Positions 1-11,860 of a stretch of DNA of 11,860 nt are shown piece by piece. Origin of the DNA: a virus (taxonomy: Duplodnaviria; Heunggongvirae; Uroviricota; Caudoviricetes). Under the pieces are notes generated by a model. That model was not told the DNA's origin. It saw only the letters and a list, made by a program, of their open reading frames with translations, and made no database searches. The stretch spans positions 1 to 11,860 of the IMG/VR virus record IMGVR_UViG_2703718842_000002; one strand, given 5' to 3'. Both the position numbers and the translations under genes were made by a program. How positions within the stretch are numbered: position 1 is the stretch's first letter; the number at the start of each line of letters is the position of its first letter.

Positions 1-237
1 CGTGTTGAGGCCAACGCCCATAATGCGGGCTGTTGCCCGGCATCCAACGCCATTCATGGCCATATCAATGATTTTCTGGTGCGTACCGGGTTGAGAAGCG
101 GTGTAAGTGAACTGCAGTTGCCATGTTTTACGGCAGTGAGAGCAGAGATAGCGCTGATGTCCGGCGGTGCTTTTGCCGTTACGCACCACCCCGTCAGTAG
201 CTGAACAGGAGGGACAGCTGATAGAAACAGAAGCCAC
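1..237 (-). CDS. insA: IS1 InsA (transposition regulator / N-terminal part of the InsAB' transposase), 3'-partial in window
   Basis: Minus-strand frame beginning at the GTG whose reverse complement is 235-237 translates [79 protein letters not shown] with no stop before the window edge. This frame is missing from the supplied ORF track because it has no in-window stop. It contains the zinc-finger-like CxxC...CxxC pair of InsA. Confidence 0.85.
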
Positions 238-269
238 TGGAGCACCTCAAAAACACCATCATACACTAA

Positions 270-292
270 ATCAGTAAGTTGGCAGCATCACC
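270..292 (-). repeat. IS1 terminal inverted repeat (insA-proximal end)
   Basis: Window 270-292 atcagtaagttggcagcatcacc is the reverse complement of the ~23-bp IS1 terminal repeat GGTGATGCTGCCAACTTACTGAT. Confidence 0.8.
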
Positions 293-2521: not shown

Positions 2522-3265
2522 ATGACAGAGACAGAATCAGCGATTCTGGCGCACGCCCGGCGATGTGCGCCAGCGGAGTCGTGCGGCTTCGTGGTGAGAA
2601 CGCCGGAAGGGGAAAGATATTTTCCCTGCGTGAATATCTCCGGTGAGCCGGAGGCGTATTTCCGGATGGCTCCGGAGGACTGGCTGCGGGCAGAAATGCA
2701 GGGTGAGATTGTGGCGCTGGTCCACAGTCACCCCGGTGCTCTGCCCTGGCTGAGTGAGGCCGACCGGCGGCTGCAGGTGCAGAGTGATTTGCCGTGGTGG
2801 CTGGTCTGCCGGGGGGCGATTCACAAGTTCCGCTGTGTGCCACATCTTACCGGGCGGCGCTTTGAGCACGGGGTGACGGACTGTTACACGCTGTTCCGGG
2901 ATGCTTACCATCTGGCGGGAATTGAGATGCCTGATTTTCATCGTGAGGATGACTGGTGGCGTCACGGTCAGAATCTCTATCTGGATAATATGGAGGCAAC
3001 GGGGCTGTATCAGGTGCCGTTGTCAGCGGCGCAGCCGGGCGATGTGCTGCTGTGCTGTTTTGGTTCATCGGTGCCGAATCATGCCGCTATTTACTGCGGC
3101 GACGGCGAGCTGCTGCACCATATTCCTGAACAGCTGAGCAAACGAGAGAGGTATACCGACAAATGGCAGCGACGCACACACTCCCTCTGGCGTCACCGGG
3201 CATGGCACGCATCTGCCTTTACGGGGATTTGCAACGATTTGGCCGCCGCATCGACCTTCGTGTGA
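2522..3265 (+). CDS. K: Tail assembly protein K (lambda gpK-like); MPN/JAMM-type domain plus NlpC/P60-type cysteine peptidase domain
   Basis: 247-aa ORF beginning 6 nt after the L stop. JAMM-like motif E...HSHPGALPWLSEAD (H-x-H-x7-S-x2-D) lies at about 2722-2763. C-terminal half carries an NlpC/P60-like Cys/His pair (GVTDCYTLFRDAYH...NHAAIYCGDG). The true start could be an internal Met (e.g. M49). The 3' end overlaps I by 103 nt in another frame. Confidence 0.85.
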   Translation: MTETESAILAHARRCAPAESCGFVVRTPEGERYFPCVNISGEPEAYFRMAPEDWLRAEMQGEIVALVHSHPGALPWLSEADRRLQVQSDLPWWLVCRGAIHKFRCVPHLTGRRFEHGVTDCYTLFRDAYHLAGIEMPDFHREDDWWRHGQNLYLDNMEATGLYQVPLSAAQPGDVLLCCFGSSVPNHAAIYCGDGELLHHIPEQLSKRERYTDKWQRRTHSLWRHRAWHASAFTGICNDLAAASTFV

Positions 3266-3810
3266 AAACGGGGGCCGAAGCCATCCGGGCGCTGGCCATG
3301 CAGATCCCGGCGTTTCGTCAGAAACTGAATGAGGGCTGGTATCAGGTGCGCATTGCCGGGCGTGATGCAGGCGAAAACGAATTATCAGCCCGTCTTAATG
3401 AGCCGCTGAAAAATGGTGCCGTGATCCACATCGTTCCGCGTCTTGCGGGAGCAAAAAGTGGCGGTGTGTTTCAGGCGGTGCTGGGGGCGGCGCTGATTGC
3501 GGTGGCATGGTGGAACCCTGTGGGCTGGCTGGGTGCCGCGGCTGTATCGGGCATGTATGCGGCAGGGGCCAGTATGATCCTGGGCGGAGTGGCGCAGATG
3601 CTGGCACCGAAAGCCAGGACGCCCACGGCAGCAAGTACAGATAACGGCAAACAGAACACCTATTTCTCGTCACTGGATAACATGGTTGCCCAGGGCAATG
3701 TTCTGCCTGTTCTGTACGGGGAAATGCGCGTGGGGTCACGCGTGGTTTCTCAGGAGATCAGCACGGCAGACGAAGGGGACGGTGGTCAGGTTGTGGTGAT
3801 TGGTCGCTGA
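3163..3810 (+). CDS. I: Tail assembly protein I (lambda gpI-like)
   Basis: Translation MAATHTLPLASPGMARICLYGDLQRFGRRIDLRVKTGAEAIRALA...NGKQNTYFSSLDNMVAQGNVLPVLYGEMRVGSRVVSQEISTADEGDGGQVVVIGR closely matches lambda gpI at both termini. The Gly/Ala-rich hydrophobic middle is also typical. Confidence 0.88.
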   Translation: MAATHTLPLASPGMARICLYGDLQRFGRRIDLRVKTGAEAIRALAMQIPAFRQKLNEGWYQVRIAGRDAGENELSARLNEPLKNGAVIHIVPRLAGAKSGGVFQAVLGAALIAVAWWNPVGWLGAAAVSGMYAAGASMILGGVAQMLAPKARTPTAASTDNGKQNTYFSSLDNMVAQGNVLPVLYGEMRVGSRVVSQEISTADEGDGGQVVVIGR

Positions 3811-3870: not shown

Positions 3871-6800
3871 ATGGGTAAAGGCAGCAGTAAGGGGCATACC
3901 CCGCGCGAAGCAAAGGACAACCTGAAGTCCACGCAGTTGCTGAGTGTGATCGATGCCATCAGCGAAGGGCCGGTTGAAGGTCCGGTGGATGGATTAAAAA
4001 GCGTGCTGCTGAACAGTACACCGGTGCTGGACAGTGAGGGGAATACCAATATCTCCGGCGTCACGGTGGTGTTCCGGGCCGGTGAGCAGGAGCAGACACC
4101 GCCGGAGGGATTTGAATCCTCCGGCTCCGAGACGGTGCTGGGTACGGAAGTGAAATACGACACGCCGATCACCCGGACCATCACGTCGGCAAACATTGAC
4201 CGACTGCGCTTTACCTTCGGCGTGCAGGCACTGGTGGAAACCACCTCAAAGGGGGACAGGAATCCGTCGGAAGTCCGCCTGCTGGTTCAGATCCAGCGTA
4301 ATGGCGGCTGGGTGACGGAAAAAGACATCACCATTAAGGGCAAAACCACCTCGCAGTATCTGGCCTCGGTGGTGGTGGGTAACCTGCCGCCGCGCCCGTT
4401 CAATATCCGGATGCGCAGGATGACGCCGGACAGCACCACAGACCAGCTGCAGAACAAAACGCTCTGGTCGTCATACACCGAAATCATCGATGTGAAACAG
4501 GGCTACCCGAACACGGCACTGGTCGGCGTGCAGGTGGATTCGGAGCAGTTCGGCAGCCAGCAGGTGAGCCGTAATTATCATCTGCGCGGGCGCATTCTGC
4601 AGGTGCCGTCGAACTATAACCCGCAGACGCGGCAATACAGCGGTATCTGGGACGGAACGTTTAAACCGGCATACAGCAACAACATGGCCTGGTGTCTGTG
4701 GGATATGCTGACCCATCCGCGCTACGGCATGGGGAAACGTCTTGGTGCGGCGGATGTGGATAAATGGGCGCTGTATGTCATCGGCCAGTACTGCGACCAG
4801 TCAGTGCCGGACGGCTTTGGCGGCACGGAGCCGCGCATCACCTGTAATGCGTACCTGACCACACAGCGCAAGGCGTGGGATGTGCTCAGTGATTTCTGCT
4901 CGGCGATGCGCTGTATGCCGGTATGGAACGGGCAGACGCTGACGTTCGTGCAGGACCGACCATCAGATAAGGTGTGGACCTATAACCGCAGTAATGTGGT
5001 GATGCCGGATGATGGTGCGCCGTTCCGCTACAGCTTCAGCGCCCTGAAGGACCGCCATAATGCCGTTGAGGTGAACTGGATTGACCCGGACAACGGCTGG
5101 GAGACGGCGACAGAGCTTGTTGAAGATACGCAGGCCATTGCCCGTTACGGTCGTAATGTCACGAAGATGGATGCCTTTGGCTGTACCTGCCGGGGGCAGG
5201 CACACCGCGCCGGGCTGTGGCTGATTAAAACGGAGCTGCTGGAGACGCAGACCGTGGATTTCAGCGTGGGTGCCGAAGGGCTTCGCCATGTACCGGGCGA
5301 TGTCATTGAAATCTGTGATGATGACTATGCGGGGATCAGCACCGGCGGGCGCGTGCTGGCGGTGAACAGCCAGACCCGGACGCTGACGCTCGACCGTGAA
5401 ATCACGCTGCCATCCTCCGGCACCACGCTGATAAGCCTGGTTGACGGAAGTGGCAATCCGGTCAGCGTGGAGGTCCAGTCCGTCACCGACGGCGTGAAGG
5501 TGAAAGTGAGCCGGGTTCCTGACGGCGTTGCCGGATACAGCGTGTGGGGGCTGAAGCTGCCGACGCTGCGCCAGCGCCTGTTCCGCTGTGTGAGTATCCG
5601 TGAGAACGACGACGGCACGTATGCCATCACTGCCGTGCAGCATGTACCGGAGAAAGAAGCCATCGTGGATAACGGGGCGCACTTTGACGGTGACCAGAGC
5701 GGCACGGTGAATGGTGTCACGCCGCCAGCAGTGCAGCATCTGACCGCCGAAGTCACCGCAGACAGCGGGGAATATCAGGTGCTGGCGCGATGGGACACGC
5801 CGAAGGTGGTGAAGGGCGTGAGCTTTATGCTTCGCCTGACCGTGGCAGCGGATGACGGCAGTGAGCGGCTGGTCAGCACGGCCAGGACGACGGAAACCAC
5901 TTACCGCTTCACACAACTGGCTCTGGGGAACTACAGGCTGACAGTCCGGGCAGTAAATGCATGGGGACAGCAGGGCGATCCGGCGTCGGTATCGTTCCGG
6001 ATTGCCGCACCGGCAGCGCCGTCGCGGATTGAGCTGACGCCGGGCTATTTTCAGATAACCGCCACGCCGCATCTTGCCGTTTATGATCCGACGGTACAGT
6101 TTGAGTTCTGGTTCTCGGAAACGCGGATTACCGATATCAGGCAGGTTGAAACCACAGCCCGCTACCTTGGTGCGGGGCTGTACTGGATAGCCGCCAGTAT
6201 CAATATCAAACCGGGCCATGATTATTACTTTTATATCCGCAGTGTGAACACCGTTGGCAAATCGGCATTCGTGGAGGCTGTTGGTCAGCCGAGTGATGAC
6301 GCATCCGGCTATCTGGATTTTTTCAAAGGCGAGATAGGGAAAACCCATCTGGCTCAGGAGCTGTGGACGCAGATTGATAACGGTCAGCTTGCGCCTGACC
6401 TGGCTGAAATCAGGACGTCCATTACGGATGTCAGCAATGAAATCACACAGACCGTCAATAAGAAACTGGAAGACCAGAGTGCGGCAATTCAGCAGATACA
6501 GAAGGTTCAGGTTGATACAAATAATAACCTGAACAGCATGTGGGCTGTGAAGCTGCAGCAGATGCAGGACGGACGCCTTTATATCGCGGGTATTGGTGCC
6601 GGTATTGAGAACACCCCTGACGGCATGCAGAGTCAGGTGCTGCTGGCGGCGGACAGGATTGCGATGGTTAATCCTGCGAATGGCAACACAAAACCGATGT
6701 TTGTTGGTCAGGGCGATCAGATATTCATGAACGACGTGTTCCTGAAACGCCTGACGGCTCCCACCATTACCAGCGGTGGAAATCCACCGGCATTTTCCCT

Positions 6801-7353
6801 GACACCGGACGGGCGACTGACGGCGAAAAATGCGGATATCAGTGGCAGTGTGAATGCGAACGCCGGGACGCTCAACAATGTCACGATTAATGAGAACTGT
6901 CAGATTAAGGGGAAACTGTCAGCCAATCAGATTGAAGGCGATATTGTCAAAACGGTCAGCAAGTCTTTCCCCCGCACGAACAGTTATGCCAGTGGCACCA
7001 TCACGGTAAGAATCAGTGATGATCAGAAATTTGACCGGCAGGTCATGATACCGCCAGTGTTATTCCGCGGTGGTAAGCATGAGAATTTCAACAGTAATAA
7101 CCAACAGTCATACTGGTATTCAACCTGCCGGTTAAGAGTGACCCGCAATGGTCAGGAGATTTTTAATCAGTCCACGACGGATGCTCAGGGCGTATTTTCC
7201 TCCGTTATAGATATGCCTGCCGGACAGGGGACGCTGACACTGACATTCACCGTATCTTCATCAGGAGCGAATAACTGGACACCAACAACCAGTATCAGCG
7301 ATCTGCTGGTTGTGGTGATGAAAAAATCCACAGCAGGTATCAGTATCAGCTGA
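3871..7353 (+). CDS. J: Host-specificity / central tail-fibre (tail tip) protein J (lambda gpJ-like)
   Basis: 1160-aa ORF. N-terminal ~800 aa are near-identical to lambda J as I recall it ([34 protein letters not shown]...). GAGGA precedes the ATG. Stop TGA at 7351-7353. An internal patch and the C-terminal ~150 aa are diverged and lower in G+C (see findings). Confidence 0.95.
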
Positions 7354-7370: not shown

Positions 7371-7397
7371 GGGCGTCAGAAATGACGCCTTTTTTAT
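7371..7397 (+). terminator. Rho-independent terminator-like hairpin downstream of J
   Basis: ggcgtca (7372-7378), loop gaaa, tgacgcc (7383-7389), followed immediately by tttttt (7390-7395). Confidence 0.6.
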
Positions 7398-7419: not shown

Positions 7420-8019
7420 ATGCGTAAAGTTTGTGCAGCAATTTTGTCCGCAGCCATCTGTCTGGCCGTATCCGGTGCGCCTGCATGGGCGTCTGAACAT
7501 CAGTCCACGCTGAGCGCGGGGTATCTTCATGCCCGGACGAACGTTTCCGGCAGCGATGATCTGAACGGGATTAACGTGAAATACCGTTATGAGTTTACGG
7601 ACACGCTGGGAATGGTGACGTCATTCAGCTATGCAGGAGACAAGAATCGCCAGCTTACCCGTTACAGCGATACCCGCTGGCATGAAGATTCCGCGCGTAA
7701 CCGCTGGTTCAGCGTGATGGCGGGGCCGTCTGTGCGCGTGAATGAATGGTTCAGCGCGTATGCGATGGCGGGTGTGGCTTACAGCCGCGTGTCGACTTTC
7801 TCCGGGGATTATCTCCGCGTAACTGACAACAAGGGGAAAATGCACGATGTGCTGACCGGAAGTGATGACGGTCGCCACAGCAACACGTCTCTGGCGTGGG
7901 GGGCTGGCGTGCAGTTTAACCCGACCGAATCCGTGGCCATTGATATTGCTTATGAAGGCTCCGGCAGTGGCGACTGGCGCACTGACGGTTTCATCGTGGG
8001 GGTCGGTTATAAATTCTGA
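7420..8019 (+). CDS. lom: Lom-family outer-membrane beta-barrel protein (Ail/Lom/PagC/OmpX family), moron gene
   Basis: 199 aa. N-terminal signal peptide [24 protein letters not shown] followed by S. C-terminus ...[29 protein letters not shown] essentially matches lambda Lom. Conserved [14 protein letters not shown] and SAYAMAGVA strands are present. RBS GAGAGG lies 5-6 nt upstream of the ATG. Located between J and stf as in lambda. Confidence 0.9.
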
Positions 8020-8045: not shown

Positions 8046-8073
8046 AGCCCGCCGGTTAAGGCGGGCTTTTTTG
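8046..8073 (+). terminator. Rho-independent terminator-like hairpin downstream of lom
   Basis: agcccgcc (8046-8053), loop ggttaa, ggcgggct (8060-8067), then ttttt (8068-8072). Confidence 0.6.
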
Positions 8074-8083
8074 TGGGGTGAAT

Positions 8084-11000
8084 ATGGCAGTAAAGATTTC
8101 AGGTGTACTGAAAGACGGCACAGGAAAACCGGTACAGAACTGCACAATCCAGCTGAAAGCAAAACGTAACAGCACCACGGTGGTGGCGAACACGGTGGCC
8201 TCAGAAAATCCGGATGAAGCCGGGCGTTACAGCATGGACGTTGAGTACGGTCAGTACAGCGTTATTCTGTTGGTGGAAGGCTTCCCGCCATCGCATGCCG
8301 GGACCATCACCGTGTATGAAGACTCACAACCGGGTACGCTGAATGATTTTCTCGGTGCCATGACGGAGGATGATGTCCGTCCGGAGGCACTGCGCCGTTT
8401 TGAACTGATGGTGGAAGAGGTGGCGCGTAACGCGTCCGCGGTGGCACAGAACACGGCAGCCGCGAAGAAGTCAGCCAGCGATGCCAGCACATCAGCCCGT
8501 GAGGCGGCAACCCATGCGACTGATGCTGCAGGCTCAGCACGCGCAGCCAGCACGTCAGCCGGACAGGCCGCGTCGTCGGCTCAGTCAGCATCTTCCAGCG
8601 CAGGAACAGCATCAACAAAGGCCACTGAAGCATCAAAAAGTGCTGCCGCCGCAGAGTCTTCAAAAAGCGCGGCAGCCACCAGTGCCGGTGCAGCGAAAAC
8701 GTCAGAAACGAATGCCGCAGCATCACAAAAATCTGCGGCCACTTCTGCATCCACCGCGACCACGAAAGCGTCAGAAGCTGCCACCTCAGCCCGGGATGCG
8801 TCGGCTTCAAAAGTGGCGGCAAAATCATCAGAAACGAGCGCAGCCTCGAGCGCCGGCATTGCAGCTTCCTCGGCAACGGCGGCAGGAAATTCCGCGAAGG
8901 CCGCAAAAACGTCTGAGACGAATGCGGATAACAGCGCACAGGCGGCAGCAGACTCACAAACTGCATCGGCAAACTCCGCGACAGCAGCCAAAAAATCAGA
9001 AACCAACGCGAAAAATAGTGAGGCAGCAGCAAAGGTCAGCGAAACCAACGCTAAAGCGTCAGAGAACAAGGCGAAAGAATATCTCGACAAGGTCGGGGGA
9101 CTCGTCAGCCCGATGACGCAATACGATTGGCCTGTTGTTACTGCTAGTGAGTCTCTTTACATCAAGATCGCGAAACTTTCCGATCCTGGAACCAGCAGAA
9201 GTCATGTAACGCTAATGGTTACTAACGCTGGTAACTACGGCTCCCCTTACGGAAACATTGACTTTATCGAGATCTCGGCGCGCGGTCTGCCTTCTTTGCT
9301 TAGTGCGGATAATGTTTCTCGTCATCTGAGTATACGCCGCTTAGGGTCAACCGGGCTGACCGATAACAACCAGATGCGTTACGGCCTGGTTAAAGGTGAC
9401 GGCTTTATTGAGGTTTGGGCATTCCAGGGTGCGTTTATTAACGACGCAAAGGTTGCGGTGCTGGCGCAGACGGCACGCACGGAATTATACATTCCAGACG
9501 GATTTGTTAAGCAAACCGCCGCGCCTTCTGGATATATTGAAGGCAACGTTGTAAGGATTTACGACCAGGTAAACAAGCCGACTAAAGCAGATTTGGGTCT
9601 TTGTAATGCTATGCTTACAGGCGCTTTCGGTCTTGGCGGTAGCGGGATAGCAACAAACGGCAAGATGAGCGATGTAGAGATCTTAAAAGCTCTGCGTGAC
9701 AAAGGTGGTCATTTCTGGCGCGGTGATAAGCCGACCGGAAGCACGGCGACCATTTATAGCCACGGTTCTGGTATATTCTCGCGGTGCGGCGATACGTGGT
9801 CAGCGATCAATATCGACTACTCAACCGCGAAGATTAAGATCTATGCCGGCAACGATGCCCGGTTTAACAACGGGACTTTTAGCGTCAATGAGCTATACGG
9901 CTCGGCAAACAAGCCGTCGAAATCGGATGTTGGACTTGGCAACGTAACGAACGATGCGCAGGTAAAAAAAACCGGCGATACAATGACCGGTGACTTGACA
10001 ATCAAAAAAGGTACACCGTCAGTCTTCCTGCGGGCAGACAGTGGAGTCACCGCTTTGCGGTTTTATACTGGCGATAACACAGAGCGCGGCATAATCTATG
10101 CTGGTCCTAACACTGATTCGCTTGGCGAAGTTCGCATCAGGGCAAAGACAGCAGGGGGGACATCAGGAGGGGATCTTGTTGTTCGTCACGACGGGAGGGT
10201 TGAAGTCCGTGATCTCACAGTAGCGTATAAAATTAAAAGCAGAACGATTGAGATTGCAAATACCGACACTGACTCATCGGCAACTACGCTCAGCATCTAT
10301 GGAGTACAGCACACGCCATTGGTTTTAACGCGTTCTGGTTCTTCTGAAAATGTGTCCATTGGGTTTAAGTTAGACAATGTGAACCCAAAGTATCTTGGAA
10401 TTGATACTAATGGGGATCTGGCTTTTGGTGAGAGTCCTGATCAGAAACAAAACAGCAAATTGATCACGCAAGCGAAACTCGACAAGGGATTAACGATTGG
10501 TGGTCAACTGGCTTTCAAAGGTACGACAGCGTTTTCAGCCGCTGCTACGTTCAGTGCCGGGATAGCAGGAGCCATCGAGCCGGAAGCCATTGACGGCCGG
10601 ACTATTGATTTAAACGACTTGATTATTGCTAATACAGAAGCTGGATCCGTTAAATACTATCAATGCAAAACTGTCGCAGGTGGTGCAAATATTACCAATA
10701 AGCCTGACGGCGTAAGCGGTAACTTTTTGGTTCGTGTAGAGTCGATTCGTAAGACTACGGGATCAGATTATGCGAACATGCAAACGCTGATTAACAGCGA
10801 CACAAAACGTATATACGTTCGCTTTGTTGTTAATGGAAACTGGACAGCGTGGAGTCAGGTTGTTGTTTCCGGATGGAATCAGGATGTAACCGTCAGGTCG
10901 TTAACCTCGACGACTCCATCAAAATTAGGTGGCGGGCGGATTGATGTGCTTGGAAGTACGTCAGATTATGGCAGCATGAATTGTACCGTTCGTGGTGTTG

Positions 11001-11860
11001 ATAGCACTGGAACCAATTCGGCGTGGTCGGTAGGCACATCAGAAAGCACAGGCAAAATGTTGTTCCTGAAAAACCACAGAAGCAGCGCTCAAGTGCTGTT
11101 AAATGGCGATGATGGAGCGGTTCAACTACTAAGTGGCACTGTTAACGGTGCTACAGCGCAGGCGCTAACCATCAACAAAGATGAGGTTAACTCAACTGCC
11201 GATTTAGTAATTAGAAAACAAACAGGGACTGGCAATCGTTTTGCTTTACTTAATTCAGGTAATTCAGAACTACCAGTTAGTATCAGGGTGTGGGGTTCCA
11301 GTACTCGACAAAACGTTTTTGAGGTTGGCACGTCTGCTGCGTATCTGTTTTATGCGCAAAAAACAACAGACGGGCAAAACCTTACTGTAAACGGAAGTGT
11401 TAACTGCACCACACTGAATCAGTCATCAGACCGCAGACTGAAAGAAAATATCGAGATTATCGATAACGCGACTGACGCAATCCGCAAAATTAATGGATAC
11501 ACATACACGCTCAAGGAGAATGGGGCACATTGCGCCGGGGTTATAGCCCAGGAAGTTGAAGAGGCCATCCCGGAGGCCGTTGGTTCATTCATCCATTACG
11601 GTGAAGAGTTGCAAGGTCCGACCGTTGACGGCAACGAGCTACGCGAAGAAACGCGCTATCTTAATGTTGACTACGCCGCCGTGACGGGCTTACTTGTTCA
11701 GTTCGCCCGTGAAACAGATGATCGCGTTACCGCGCTGGAAGAGGAAAACACAACGCTACGTCAAAATCTGGCAACAGCAGACACCCGGATCAGCACTCTG
11801 GAAAATCAGGTAAGCGAACTGGTTGCACTTGTCCGGCAGTTAACAGGAAGCGAACATTGA
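8084..11860 (+). CDS. stf: Side tail fibre protein: lambda Stf-like N-terminal anchor + Ala/Ser-rich repeat stalk + divergent distal fibre module + C-terminal intramolecular-chaperone (peptidase S74-type) domain
   Basis: Track ORF 8078-11860 begins at a GTG; ATG at 8084 gives MAVKISGVLKDGTGKPVQNCTIQLKAKRNSTTVVANTV...SMDVEYGQYSVIL..., which matches the lambda Stf N-terminus, and GGGG sits 6 nt upstream. Stop TGA at 11858-11860 is the last codon in the window. Confidence 0.9.
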   Translation: MAVKISGVLKDGTGKPVQNCTIQLKAKRNSTTVVANTVASENPDEAGRYSMDVEYGQYSVILLVEGFPPSHAGTITVYEDSQPGTLNDFLGAMTEDDVRPEALRRFELMVEEVARNASAVAQNTAAAKKSASDASTSAREAATHATDAAGSARAASTSAGQAASSAQSASSSAGTASTKATEASKSAAAAESSKSAAATSAGAAKTSETNAAASQKSAATSASTATTKASEAATSARDASASKVAAKSSETSAASSAGIAASSATAAGNSAKAAKTSETNADNSAQAAADSQTASANSATAAKKSETNAKNSEAAAKVSETNAKASENKAKEYLDKVGGLVSPMTQYDWPVVTASESLYIKIAKLSDPGTSRSHVTLMVTNAGNYGSPYGNIDFIEISARGLPSLLSADNVSRHLSIRRLGSTGLTDNNQMRYGLVKGDGFIEVWAFQGAFINDAKVAVLAQTARTELYIPDGFVKQTAAPSGYIEGNVVRIYDQVNKPTKADLGLCNAMLTGAFGLGGSGIATNGKMSDVEILKALRDKGGHFWRGDKPTGSTATIYSHGSGIFSRCGDTWSAINIDYSTAKIKIYAGNDARFNNGTFSVNELYGSANKPSKSDVGLGNVTNDAQVKKTGDTMTGDLTIKKGTPSVFLRADSGVTALRFYTGDNTERGIIYAGPNTDSLGEVRIRAKTAGGTSGGDLVVRHDGRVEVRDLTVAYKIKSRTIEIANTDTDSSATTLSIYGVQHTPLVLTRSGSSENVSIGFKLDNVNPKYLGIDTNGDLAFGESPDQKQNSKLITQAKLDKGLTIGGQLAFKGTTAFSAAATFSAGIAGAIEPEAIDGRTIDLNDLIIANTEAGSVKYYQCKTVAGGANITNKPDGVSGNFLVRVESIRKTTGSDYANMQTLINSDTKRIYVRFVVNGNWTAWSQVVVSGWNQDVTVRSLTSTTPSKLGGGRIDVLGSTSDYGSMNCTVRGVDSTGTNSAWSVGTSESTGKMLFLKNHRSSAQVLLNGDDGAVQLLSGTVNGATAQALTINKDEVNSTADLVIRKQTGTGNRFALLNSGNSELPVSIRVWGSSTRQNVFEVGTSAAYLFYAQKTTDGQNLTVNGSVNCTTLNQSSDRRLKENIEIIDNATDAIRKINGYTYTLKENGAHCAGVIAQEVEEAIPEAVGSFIHYGEELQGPTVDGNELREETRYLNVDYAAVTGLLVQFARETDDRVTALEEENTTLRQNLATADTRISTLENQVSELVALVRQLTGSEH
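8430..9090 (+). repeat. Low-complexity Ala/Ser/Thr-rich coding repeats within stf (degenerate K-x-SETNA-type units)
   Basis: Translation is dominated by A/S/T/K with recurring KTSETNAAASQKSAATSAS, KTSETNADNS, KKSETNAKNSE, KVSETNAKASENKAKE. G+C is very high (about 65% by hand count at 8461-8520). This bias also produces long spurious ORFs on both strands. Confidence 0.55.
11426..11857 (+). other. C-terminal intramolecular chaperone / auto-proteolysis domain of the tail fibre (endosialidase-chaperone type, peptidase S74-like)
   Basis: Domain starts at the motif S-D-R-R-L-K (Ser codon 11426-11428, Lys codon 11441-11443), matching the S-D-x-x-x-K Ser/Lys dyad signature. The following ~140 aa (ENIEIIDNATDAIRKINGYTYTLKENG...YLNVDYAAVTGLLVQFARE...LEEENTTLRQNLATADTRISTLENQVSELVALVRQL) end in a heptad-like coiled-coil segment. 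Confidence 0.7.

What the first reader, a model, noticed from the sequence alone, without database searches (positions are those of the whole stretch)
11426..11860. Predicted self-cleaving intramolecular chaperone domain with an S-D-x-x-x-K dyad at the fibre C-terminus
The sequence QSSDRRLKENIEIIDNATDAIRKINGYTYTLKENG... carries Ser and Lys at i and i+5 in the exact spacing of the catalytic dyad of endosialidase-type C-terminal chaperone domains (also found in T5 L-shaped tail fibre and K1F/K5 tailspikes), followed by a coiled-coil-like tail. These domains fold the trimer and then excise themselves, so the mature fibre would end at the Ser encoded at 11426-11428.
Basis: partly seen in the sequence, partly recalled or inferred. 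Interest (0 to 1): 0.6.

Follow-up and report, generated by a model that had tools for sequence, protein, structure and literature searches.

The report
Self-cleaving chaperone domain on prophage tail fibre
The last 144 amino acids of this E. coli prophage side tail fibre are an ordinary, already-annotated "peptidase S74" intramolecular chaperone domain, which helps the fibre trimer fold and then most likely cuts itself off.

Summary
Window 11426-11857 encodes SDRRLKENIE..., the last 144 aa of an intact 1258-aa lambda-Stf-like fibre (ATG 8084, stop 11858-11860).

- **Family match:** Pfam Peptidase_S74 (PF13884) matches from exactly this Ser (64 bits against a cut-off of 22, E 1e-17).
- **Catalytic residues:** Ser1115 and Lys1120 have the i/i+5 spacing of K1F endoNF S911/K916 and T5 pb1 S1264/K1269. 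In 238-239 homologous domains the Ser is kept in 237/238, the Asp in 238/238 and the Lys in 239/239.
- **Existing annotation:** RefSeq already names the identical domain "S74 family peptidase". About 800 of 5,426 complete E. coli genomes carry it.

By analogy with S16 gp37 (cut DLNVS^SDRRIKK), T5 and K1F, the cut should fall between Ser1114 and Ser1115. The mature fibre would then end one codon earlier (11423-11425), and the Ser at 11426 leaves with the chaperone.

Two differences from the K1F/T5 prototypes: the upstream Asp/Arg(-14) "folding sensor" motif is absent, and the preceding module resembles T4 gp34.

Cleavage itself is inferred, not shown. An IS1 element interrupts the tape-measure gene, so the prophage is probably defective. 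This is an ordinary finding of low interest.

The parts
8084..11860 (+). Complete side-tail-fibre (Stf-like) gene, 1258 aa plus stop. Predicted precursor 131.5 kDa.
   Evidence: Uninterrupted ORF. PF08400 position 1 aligns to Met1. PGAP uses the same start in NZ_CP018995. Masses.
8084..8485 (+). Prophage tail fibre N-terminal domain (aa 1-134), the lambda-Stf-type virion attachment end.
   Evidence: PF08400 phage_tail_N, E 7e-72, 240 bits.
11279..11425 (+). Beta-rich module just before the cleavage site (aa 1066-1114, SIRVWGSSTRQNVFEVGTSAAYLFYAQKTTDGQNLTVNGSVNCTTLNQS). It resembles a segment of T4 gp34 and lacks the DN..LG....R motif of K1F/T5.
   Evidence: Profile match to T4 gp34 structures 4UXE/5NXF/5NXH, E 1e-7 to 4e-6. 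Foldseek hits to the same entries. Thr1101 stands at position -14 where K1F has Arg897 and T5 has Arg1250.
11423..11425 (+). Ser1114, the predicted last residue of the mature fibre. The scissile bond lies between 11425 and 11426.
   Evidence: Inference from S16 gp37 DLNVS^SDRRIKK (PMC7917993) and from T5/K1F, where the catalytic Ser is removed with the chaperone (PMC4690869).
11426..11428 (+). Ser1115, the predicted catalytic nucleophile and first residue of the released chaperone.
   Evidence: Profile position 1 of PF13884. Ser in 237 of 238 homologous domains. Invariant in alignments A1 and A2. Same register as T5 S1264.
11441..11443 (+). Lys1120, the predicted general base of the Ser-Lys dyad (i+5).
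   Evidence: Lys in 239 of 239 homologous domains. Invariant in A1 and A2. Same spacing as K1F K916 and T5 K1269.
11426..11581 (+). Stretch matched by the Pfam Peptidase_S74 model (aa 1115-1166): loop, two short helices and two short strands.
   Evidence: Secondary structure from the model.
11579..11668 (+). Long beta-hairpin (aa 1166-1195), equivalent to the 'tentacle' that embraces the fibre tip in solved chaperone domains.
   Evidence: AF2 strands 64-77 and 83-93 of the 156-aa model. Topology as described for T5 and K1F (PMC4690869).
11672..11845 (+). C-terminal helix of 58 residues (aa 1197-1254), predicted to form the central trimeric coiled coil. It is longer than in T5 (24 residues).
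   Evidence: AF2 helix 95-152 with pLDDT above 95. The length varies by heptad-sized indels among homologues.

Best explanation
Residues 1115-1258 of this lambdoid prophage side tail fibre are a C-terminal intramolecular chaperone domain of the peptidase S74 family (also called CIMCD, ICA or IMC).

**Inferred mechanism, taken from the solved family members.**
1. Three nascent chains are brought together by the C-terminal helices, which form a trimeric coiled coil.
2. The beta-hairpin 'tentacles' clasp the distal beta-structured fibre tip and template its folding from the C-terminal end.
3. Once the trimer is formed, Lys1120 activates Ser1115, which attacks the peptide bond between Ser1114 and Ser1115.
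4. The 16.0-kDa chaperone trimer is released. This leaves a 115.5-kDa mature fibre that ends ...TTLNQS and exposes the receptor-binding tip.

The domain takes the place of the separate Tfa assembly chaperone used by phage lambda's own Stf.

**Shown here:** family membership, conservation of the dyad, the predicted fold, and the lack of an intact Tfa gene downstream in related loci.

**Inferred:** trimerisation, cleavage, the exact cleavage bond, and unmasking of the tip.
For: - **Pfam:** PF13884 scores 60-64 bits against a cut-off of 22, starting on Ser1115. K1F endoNF and T5 pb1 hit the same model at about 40 bits; the T5 match starts at profile position 1 on Ser1264, while the K1F match covers profile positions 5-58.
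- **Dyad register:** window TLNQS-S1115-DRRL-K1120, T5 INT-S1264-DARL-K1269, K1F VT-S911-NGER-K916.
- **Conservation:** Ser 237/238, Asp 238/238, Lys 239/239 across homologous domains. All three are invariant in alignments of 26 and 48 sequences reaching down to 31% identity.
- **Sequence matches to solved structures:** S16 gp37, E 2e-23 over the whole domain; MyRF ICA, 6e-12; GA-1, 0.017.
- **Abundance:** 12,709 cluster representatives match at E <= 1e-3. PHROG tail-fibre families carry the domain at their C-terminal end.
- **No separate chaperone nearby:** lytically growing phage Ayreon has an 87%-identical domain and no Tfa gene downstream. In E. coli AZ147, where the domain is 100% identical, only truncated Caudo_TAP remnants follow the stop codon.
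- **Existing name:** RefSeq calls it 'S74 family peptidase'.
Against: - No experiment exists on this protein or on a close relative. None turned up in the paper library.
- The upstream Asp/Arg 'sensor' is absent. In endoNF this is Arg897 and in T5 it is Arg1250 of a neighbouring chain, 14 residues before the Ser; it forms the oxyanion hole and couples cleavage to folding. Position -14 here is Thr1101, and the only basic residues within 45 residues upstream are Lys1093 and Arg1075.
- The structure model is a monomer, so the trimer geometry and the active site were not assessed.
- An IS1 element interrupts the tape-measure gene of this prophage, so the fibre may never be built into a virion in this strain.
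Confidence: 0.88

Rival explanations
1. Intact by sequence but idle. The gene sits in a defective prophage and is not used to build fibres in this strain. The S74 domain persists only because the inactivation is recent, or because the module serves as recombination stock for other lambdoid phages.
For: Window 1-292 is the left end of IS1, abutting the 3' part of the tape-measure gene. The same prophage in AZ147 has an uninterrupted tape-measure gene and aligns only from window position 288 onward. A terminator-like hairpin lies 17 nt before the fibre start codon.
Against: The 1258-codon ORF has no stop, and L, K, I, J and lom are all intact. The window differs from the AZ147 copy by only 16 substitutions in 11.5 kb, and the chaperone part is 100% identical. 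This reading concerns use in this host, not what the domain is, so it is compatible with the main explanation.
Confidence: 0.35
2. An S74-like domain that trimerises the fibre but is retained rather than cleaved, because the upstream residues that complete the active site in K1F and T5 are missing.
For: The DN..LG....R motif is absent and Thr1101 stands at position -14. [quoted passage not shown]
Against: Ser, Asp and Lys are essentially invariant in this subfamily, which would be unexpected for a non-catalytic domain. S16 gp37 has the nearly identical junction DLNVS^SDRRIKK, also without an Arg at -14 in the aligned stretch, and does autocleave. MyRF cleaves without any stalk residue taking part (PMC8326128).
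Confidence: 0.06
3. A chance S-x4-K motif next to a generic coiled coil, with no chaperone domain present.
For: S-x4-K occurs 13 times in this Ser-rich protein, against about 7 expected.
Against: The profile, structure and conservation evidence all contradict this.
Confidence: 0.01

Closest known systems
Salmonella phage S16 long tail fibre gp37, C-terminal intramolecular chaperone (PDB 6F45)
   Same: Closest solved relative by sequence: E 8e-9 with a single sequence and 2e-23 with a profile, over the whole domain. The junction is almost identical: S16 DLNVS^SDRRIKK against TLNQS-SDRRLKE here. The released domain is of similar size (113 aa in S16, 144 aa here). S16 autocleavage between the two serines is reported in PMC7917993.
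   Different: S16 gp37 belongs to a T-even myovirus, and removing its chaperone exposes a docking site for a separate adhesin, gp38. No gp38-like gene lies next to this fibre or next to its Ayreon homologue. The host protein here is a lambda-Stf-type siphovirus side fibre.
[quoted passage not shown]
   Different: T5 has the upstream Asp1239/Arg1250 sensor, which is absent here. The T5 terminal helix is 24 residues against 58 here. Sequence identity in the structural alignment is about 11%.
Coliphage K1F endosialidase endoNF C-terminal intramolecular chaperone domain (PDB 3GW6), the founding member of S74
   Different: EndoNF is a tailspike enzyme with a triple beta-helix stalk, and its Arg897 takes part in cleavage (PMC8326128). 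Here the client is a fibre tip with a T4 gp34-like module and there is no Arg at -14. A profile built from close homologues does not align significantly to K1F.
Myelin regulatory factor (MyRF) ICA domain (PDB 7DC3)
   Different: MyRF is a eukaryotic membrane-bound transcription factor, and cleavage releases a transcription factor rather than a virion fibre.
Phage lambda Stf with its separate Tfa chaperone
   Same: Same N-terminal attachment domain (PF08400) and the same genomic position after J and lom.
   Different: Lambda's Stf needs the downstream Tfa (Caudo_TAP) protein; this is established knowledge, not tested here. In this fibre the assembly function is built into the protein, and related loci carry either no tfa gene or only 3' remnants of one.

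Membership tests
Peptidase S74 / C-terminal intramolecular chaperone domain (PF13884) | Significant match to the family profile, above the curated cut-off | tested here: met
   60.1-64.3 bits against a gathering score of 22, E 2.5e-16 to 1.2e-17. Profile positions 1-57 of 58 are covered, starting on Ser1115.
Peptidase S74 / C-terminal intramolecular chaperone domain (PF13884) | Catalytic Ser and Lys five residues apart, in register with endoNF S911/K916 and T5 S1264/K1269 | tested here: met
   Ser1115 and Lys1120. The register was checked on the K1F and T5 sequences themselves. Ser 237/238 and Lys 239/239 in homologous domains. Both are invariant in A1 and A2.
Peptidase S74 / C-terminal intramolecular chaperone domain (PF13884) | Characteristic fold: short helices and strands, a long beta-hairpin 'tentacle', and a C-terminal helix for a triple coiled coil | tested here: met
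Peptidase S74 / C-terminal intramolecular chaperone domain (PF13884) | Position at the extreme C-terminus of a fibre or tailspike protein, directly after a beta-structured distal domain | tested here: met
   The domain is the last 144 of 1258 aa and the stop codon is at 11858-11860. The preceding segment is predicted all-beta and resembles T4 gp34.
Peptidase S74 / C-terminal intramolecular chaperone domain (PF13884) | Upstream Asp and Arg (-14, from a neighbouring chain) forming the oxyanion hole, as in endoNF (Arg897) and T5 (Arg1250). This is a feature of the phage prototypes and is not universal, since MyRF lacks it. | tested here: not met
   Position -14 is Thr1101 and there is no DN..LG....R motif. 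The only basic residues within 45 aa upstream are Lys1093 (-22) and Arg1075 (-40). MyRF cleaves without stalk residues (PMC8326128).
Peptidase S74 / C-terminal intramolecular chaperone domain (PF13884) | Autoproteolytic release of the domain after trimer folding, abolished by Ser or Lys mutation | not testable with these tools
   This needs expression, SDS-PAGE and mass spectrometry. No published data on this fibre turned up.
Peptidase S74 / C-terminal intramolecular chaperone domain (PF13884) | No separate downstream fibre-assembly chaperone is needed | tested here: inconclusive
   The window ends at the stop codon, so this cannot be read in the window itself. In related loci, phage Ayreon has no Tfa-like gene downstream, and E. 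coli AZ147 has only truncated Caudo_TAP remnants covering profile positions 90-130 and 77-131 of 131. This is consistent with the feature but is indirect.
Lambda-type side tail fibre (Stf) | N-terminal prophage tail fibre domain (PF08400) and a gene position after J and lom in a lambda-like tail module | tested here: met
   PF08400, E 7e-72. The upstream genes match the tape-measure C-terminus, M, L, K, I, J and Ail/Lom families.
Lambda-type side tail fibre (Stf) | Distal part assembled with a separate Tfa (Caudo_TAP) chaperone encoded immediately downstream | tested here: not met
   Related loci have no intact tfa gene after the fibre gene. The fibre carries an S74 domain instead.

The most novel reading that the evidence does not exclude
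This subfamily of S74 domains follows a T4 gp34-like module through a ...LNxS^SDRRxK junction and lacks the Asp/Arg folding-sensor motif of K1F and T5. It may therefore couple cleavage to folding in a different way. The trigger could be trimerisation of the chaperone alone, as in MyRF, or a different oxyanion-stabilising residue could be used. As in S16, removal of the chaperone might also expose a docking surface for a separate, still unidentified adhesin rather than the receptor-binding site itself.
Probability: 0.12. Interest if true: 0.3.

Novelty: already known. Interest (0 to 1): 0.1.

Why it matters
It matters little beyond correct annotation. The domain marks where the mature receptor-binding fibre ends, at Ser1114 rather than at the stop codon. 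That is useful when designing recombinant fibres, chimeric phage or tailocin fibres, or host-range predictions. Constructs must keep the 144-aa chaperone for folding, and should expect a 115.5-kDa product plus a 16-kDa fragment. The locus is also one more example of lambdoid side fibres swapping a Tfa-dependent tip for a self-chaperoned one, with tfa remnants left at the junction.

Tried and rejected
- **First AlphaFold2 run.** I used the last 236 aa with 26 close E. coli homologues. The model was poor (pLDDT 69.8, below 50 around the cleavage site), and its Foldseek search found only T4 gp34 for the upstream part, with non-significant 3GW6 hits at E 0.2-0.6. A second run with 156 aa and a more diverse 48-sequence alignment fixed this.
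- **Single-sequence PDB search.** It found only S16 gp37. The profile from close homologues (A1) added MyRF and T4 gp34 but not endoNF or T5.
- **Direct HMM alignment to K1F and T5.** An HMM built from my 259 fetched domain matches does not align significantly to either. Only the SDxRLK stretch of T5 aligns, at a nominal E of 0.018 against a three-sequence database. The link to those two proteins therefore rests on the shared Pfam model and on fold comparison.
- **NCBIfam.** It gave no relevant hit.
- **Search for a gp38-like adhesin or Tfa downstream in phage Ayreon.** The 63-aa and 167-aa ORFs have no Pfam match, and the 167-aa product does not look like a gp38-type adhesin.
- **Suspected frameshift in the AZ147 copy.** RefSeq annotates that copy as two features, so I assumed a frameshift. 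This was wrong: the ORF there is also uninterrupted, so the split is an annotation artefact.
- **Tandem repeat search in the fibre gene.** It found nothing of note.
- **Literature searches.** They found no experimental work on lambdoid Stf proteins with S74 domains.

Full report
**What is in the window.** The window is the tail-tip end of a lambda-like prophage of Escherichia coli. Its ORFs match, in order:
- the C-terminal part of the tape-measure protein (293-1484);
- minor tail proteins M (1462-1818) and L (1818-2516);
- K, with JAB and NlpC/P60 domains (2522-3265);
- I (3163-3810);
- the tip attachment protein J (3871-7353);
- an Ail/Lom outer-membrane protein (7420-8019);
- a 1258-codon ORF from ATG 8084 to TGA 11858-11860.

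The first 134 residues of that last ORF are the prophage tail fibre N-terminal domain (PF08400, E 7e-72). It is therefore the side tail fibre (Stf) of this prophage. The same 11.5 kb, with 16 substitutions and no indels, is present in E. coli Ecol_AZ147, next to potB.

**Checking the observation.** The bare motif proves little. S-x4-K occurs 13 times in this Ser-rich protein, against about 7 expected by composition. SD-x3-K occurs once, against 0.39 expected. The decisive evidence is the profile match. Pfam Peptidase_S74 (PF13884, 'chaperone of endosialidase') matches residues 1115-1166, with profile position 1 on Ser1115. The score is 60.1 bits (E 2.5e-16) for the whole protein and 64.3 bits (E 1.2e-17) for the C-terminal 144 aa, against a gathering score of 22.

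**Comparison with the characterised members.** I fetched K1F gene 17 (endoNF) and T5 ltf (pb1) and read their sequences directly:

| Protein | Junction |
|---|---|
| K1F endoNF | ...IVT-S911-NGER-K916 |
| T5 pb1 | ...INT-S1264-DARL-K1269 |
| This fibre | ...LNQS-S1115-DRRL-K1120 |

Both reference proteins hit PF13884 at about 40 bits; the T5 match starts at profile position 1 on Ser1264, while the K1F match covers profile positions 5-58.

Conservation supports the dyad. Among the domain matches I collected from two database searches, Ser is present in 237 of 238, the following Asp in 238 of 238, and Lys in 239 of 239. The three residues are invariant in curated alignments of 26 and 48 sequences that reach down to 31% identity.

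The family is very large. The exhaustive representative search found 12,709 clusters at E <= 1e-3. A tblastn search found the domain in 1,409 phage records, including T5-like, T-even, Klebsiella, Vibrio, cyanophage and Streptococcus phages.

**Fold.** A first AlphaFold2 run with a shallow alignment was poor (pLDDT 69.8). A second run on aa 1103-1258 with 48 diverse homologues gave pLDDT 92.1 and pTM 0.72. That model shows:
- a short helix, two short strands and a second short helix;
- a long beta-hairpin (aa 1166-1195);
- a 58-residue terminal helix (aa 1197-1254).

This is the topology described for the T5 and K1F chaperones: a hairpin 'tentacle' that embraces the fibre tip, and a C-terminal helix that forms the central triple coiled coil (PMC4690869).

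**Where the cut should be.** Three published cases point one residue earlier:
- In S16 the cleavage is reported between the two serines of DLNVS^SDRRIKK (PMC7917993). The junction here is TLNQS-SDRRLKE.
- The same was seen for K1F (PMC4690869).

The best prediction is therefore cleavage between Ser1114 (11423-11425) and Ser1115 (11426-11428). That gives a 115.5-kDa mature fibre and a 16.0-kDa released domain. The phi29 appendage was modelled with the Ser retained, so a one-residue uncertainty remains.

**How it most likely works.** This mechanism is inferred from the family, not shown here.
1. The terminal helices trimerise.
2. The hairpins clasp and template the distal beta-structure.
3. Lys1120 activates Ser1115.
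4. The Ser1114-Ser1115 bond is cut and the chaperone trimer leaves, unmasking the tip.

In T5 the uncleaved form does not block adsorption, whereas the cleaved form does.

The domain would replace lambda's separate Tfa chaperone. Phage Ayreon is a lambdoid phage grown on K-12. Its Stf ends in an 87%-identical domain, and it has no Tfa-like gene downstream. In AZ147 the stop codon is followed only by two truncated Caudo_TAP fragments, both missing their N-termini. This looks like the scar of a module swap whose junction lay inside tfa.

**Differences from the prototypes.**
- *Missing sensor motif.* K1F and T5 share an upstream motif: PYNDNVTALGGPSNR897 in K1F and PMADNRYNLGWGSGR1250 in T5. Its Arg, 14 residues before the Ser and contributed by a neighbouring chain, completes the oxyanion hole and makes cleavage depend on correct folding (PMC4690869, PMC8326128). 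That motif is absent here: position -14 is Thr1101.
- *Different upstream module.* The preceding 49 residues (SIRVWGSSTRQNVFEVGTSAAYLFYAQ...VNG) match a segment of T4 gp34 (E 1e-7).

This does not argue strongly against cleavage. In the aligned stretch, S16 gp37 also has no Arg at -14 and does autocleave. MyRF cleaves with no stalk residue involved. It does mean the residue that stabilises the transition state is unidentified here. The terminal helix is also longer than in T5 (58 residues against 24), and it varies among close homologues by heptad-sized indels.

**Is it new?** No. RefSeq/PGAP already names the 100%-identical region 'pyocin knob domain-containing S74 family peptidase' or 'tail fiber domain-containing protein'. 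At megablast sensitivity the 435-bp segment occurs in 813 of 5,426 complete E. coli genomes, typically twice per genome. Homologous proteins in the large collection are already labelled 'peptidase S74' or 'chaperone of endosialidase'. I found no experimental paper on a lambdoid Stf with this domain. The specific protein is therefore uncharacterised, but the kind of domain, its mechanism and its annotation are all established.

**Context caveat.** Window 1-292 is the left end of an IS1 element, with insA on the minus strand. It abuts the tape-measure gene, which is uninterrupted in AZ147. The prophage in the source genome is therefore probably tail-defective, and the fibre may not be used there, although every gene in the window is intact.

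**Verdict.** This is an ordinary, already-annotated feature of low interest.

Noticed in passing
window 1-292 (junction at 292/293): The window starts inside an IS1 element. insA lies on the minus strand (ORF 54-266), and the terminal inverted repeat ends ...ggcagcatcacc at 292. The IS1 abuts the 3' part of the prophage tape-measure gene. The same prophage in E. coli AZ147 has an uninterrupted tape-measure gene and aligns only from position 288 onward. The prophage here is therefore probably defective.
   Followed up: partly
window 11279-11425 (aa 1066-1114): The segment just before the cleavage site (SIRVWGSSTRQNVFEVGTSAAYLFYAQKTTDGQNLTVNGSV...) matches a segment of the T4 proximal long tail fibre gp34 (about residues 960-1023 of the full-length protein; PDB 4UXE, 5NXF, 5NXH) at E 1e-7. 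This is a shared fibre building block between a lambdoid side fibre and a T-even fibre.
   Followed up: partly
L002 (NZ_CP018995) 9007-12783, equivalent to window 8084-11860: RefSeq annotates this fibre as two features: an 'incomplete, missing C-terminus' pseudogene and a separate S74 peptidase CDS from an internal start. The 1258-codon ORF is in fact uninterrupted there, as it is in the window. This is an annotation artefact, and other genomes in the hit list show the same two-feature split.
   Followed up: yes
L002 12832-12966 and 13838-14011 (downstream of the window's end): Two truncated tail-fibre-assembly (Caudo_TAP) fragments lacking their N-termini follow the fibre stop codon. They flank a methyltransferase gene and a DinI remnant. 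They look like scars of module exchange with junctions inside tfa.
   Followed up: partly
window 7371-7390 and 8046-8067: Intrinsic-terminator-like hairpins with T-runs lie after J and after lom. The second ends 17 nt before the fibre start codon, so fibre expression would need read-through, as with lambda late antitermination. Phage Ayreon's record annotates terminators at the equivalent sites.
   Followed up: partly
window ~8480-9110 (aa ~135-345): A long Ala/Ser/Thr/Lys-rich low-complexity stretch (…AAKKSASDASTSAREAATHATDAAGSARAAS…) follows the N-terminal domain. Most of the substitutions relative to the AZ147 copy fall in or just before it (8119-8859). No DNA tandem repeat was detected.
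   Followed up: no
window 11708-11857 (aa 1209-1258): The terminal coiled-coil helix reads as if it carries an internal repeat (DRVTALEEEN...TRISTLENQV...). Close homologues differ here by 7-residue and roughly 21-residue indels, so coiled-coil length varies within the subfamily.
   Followed up: no
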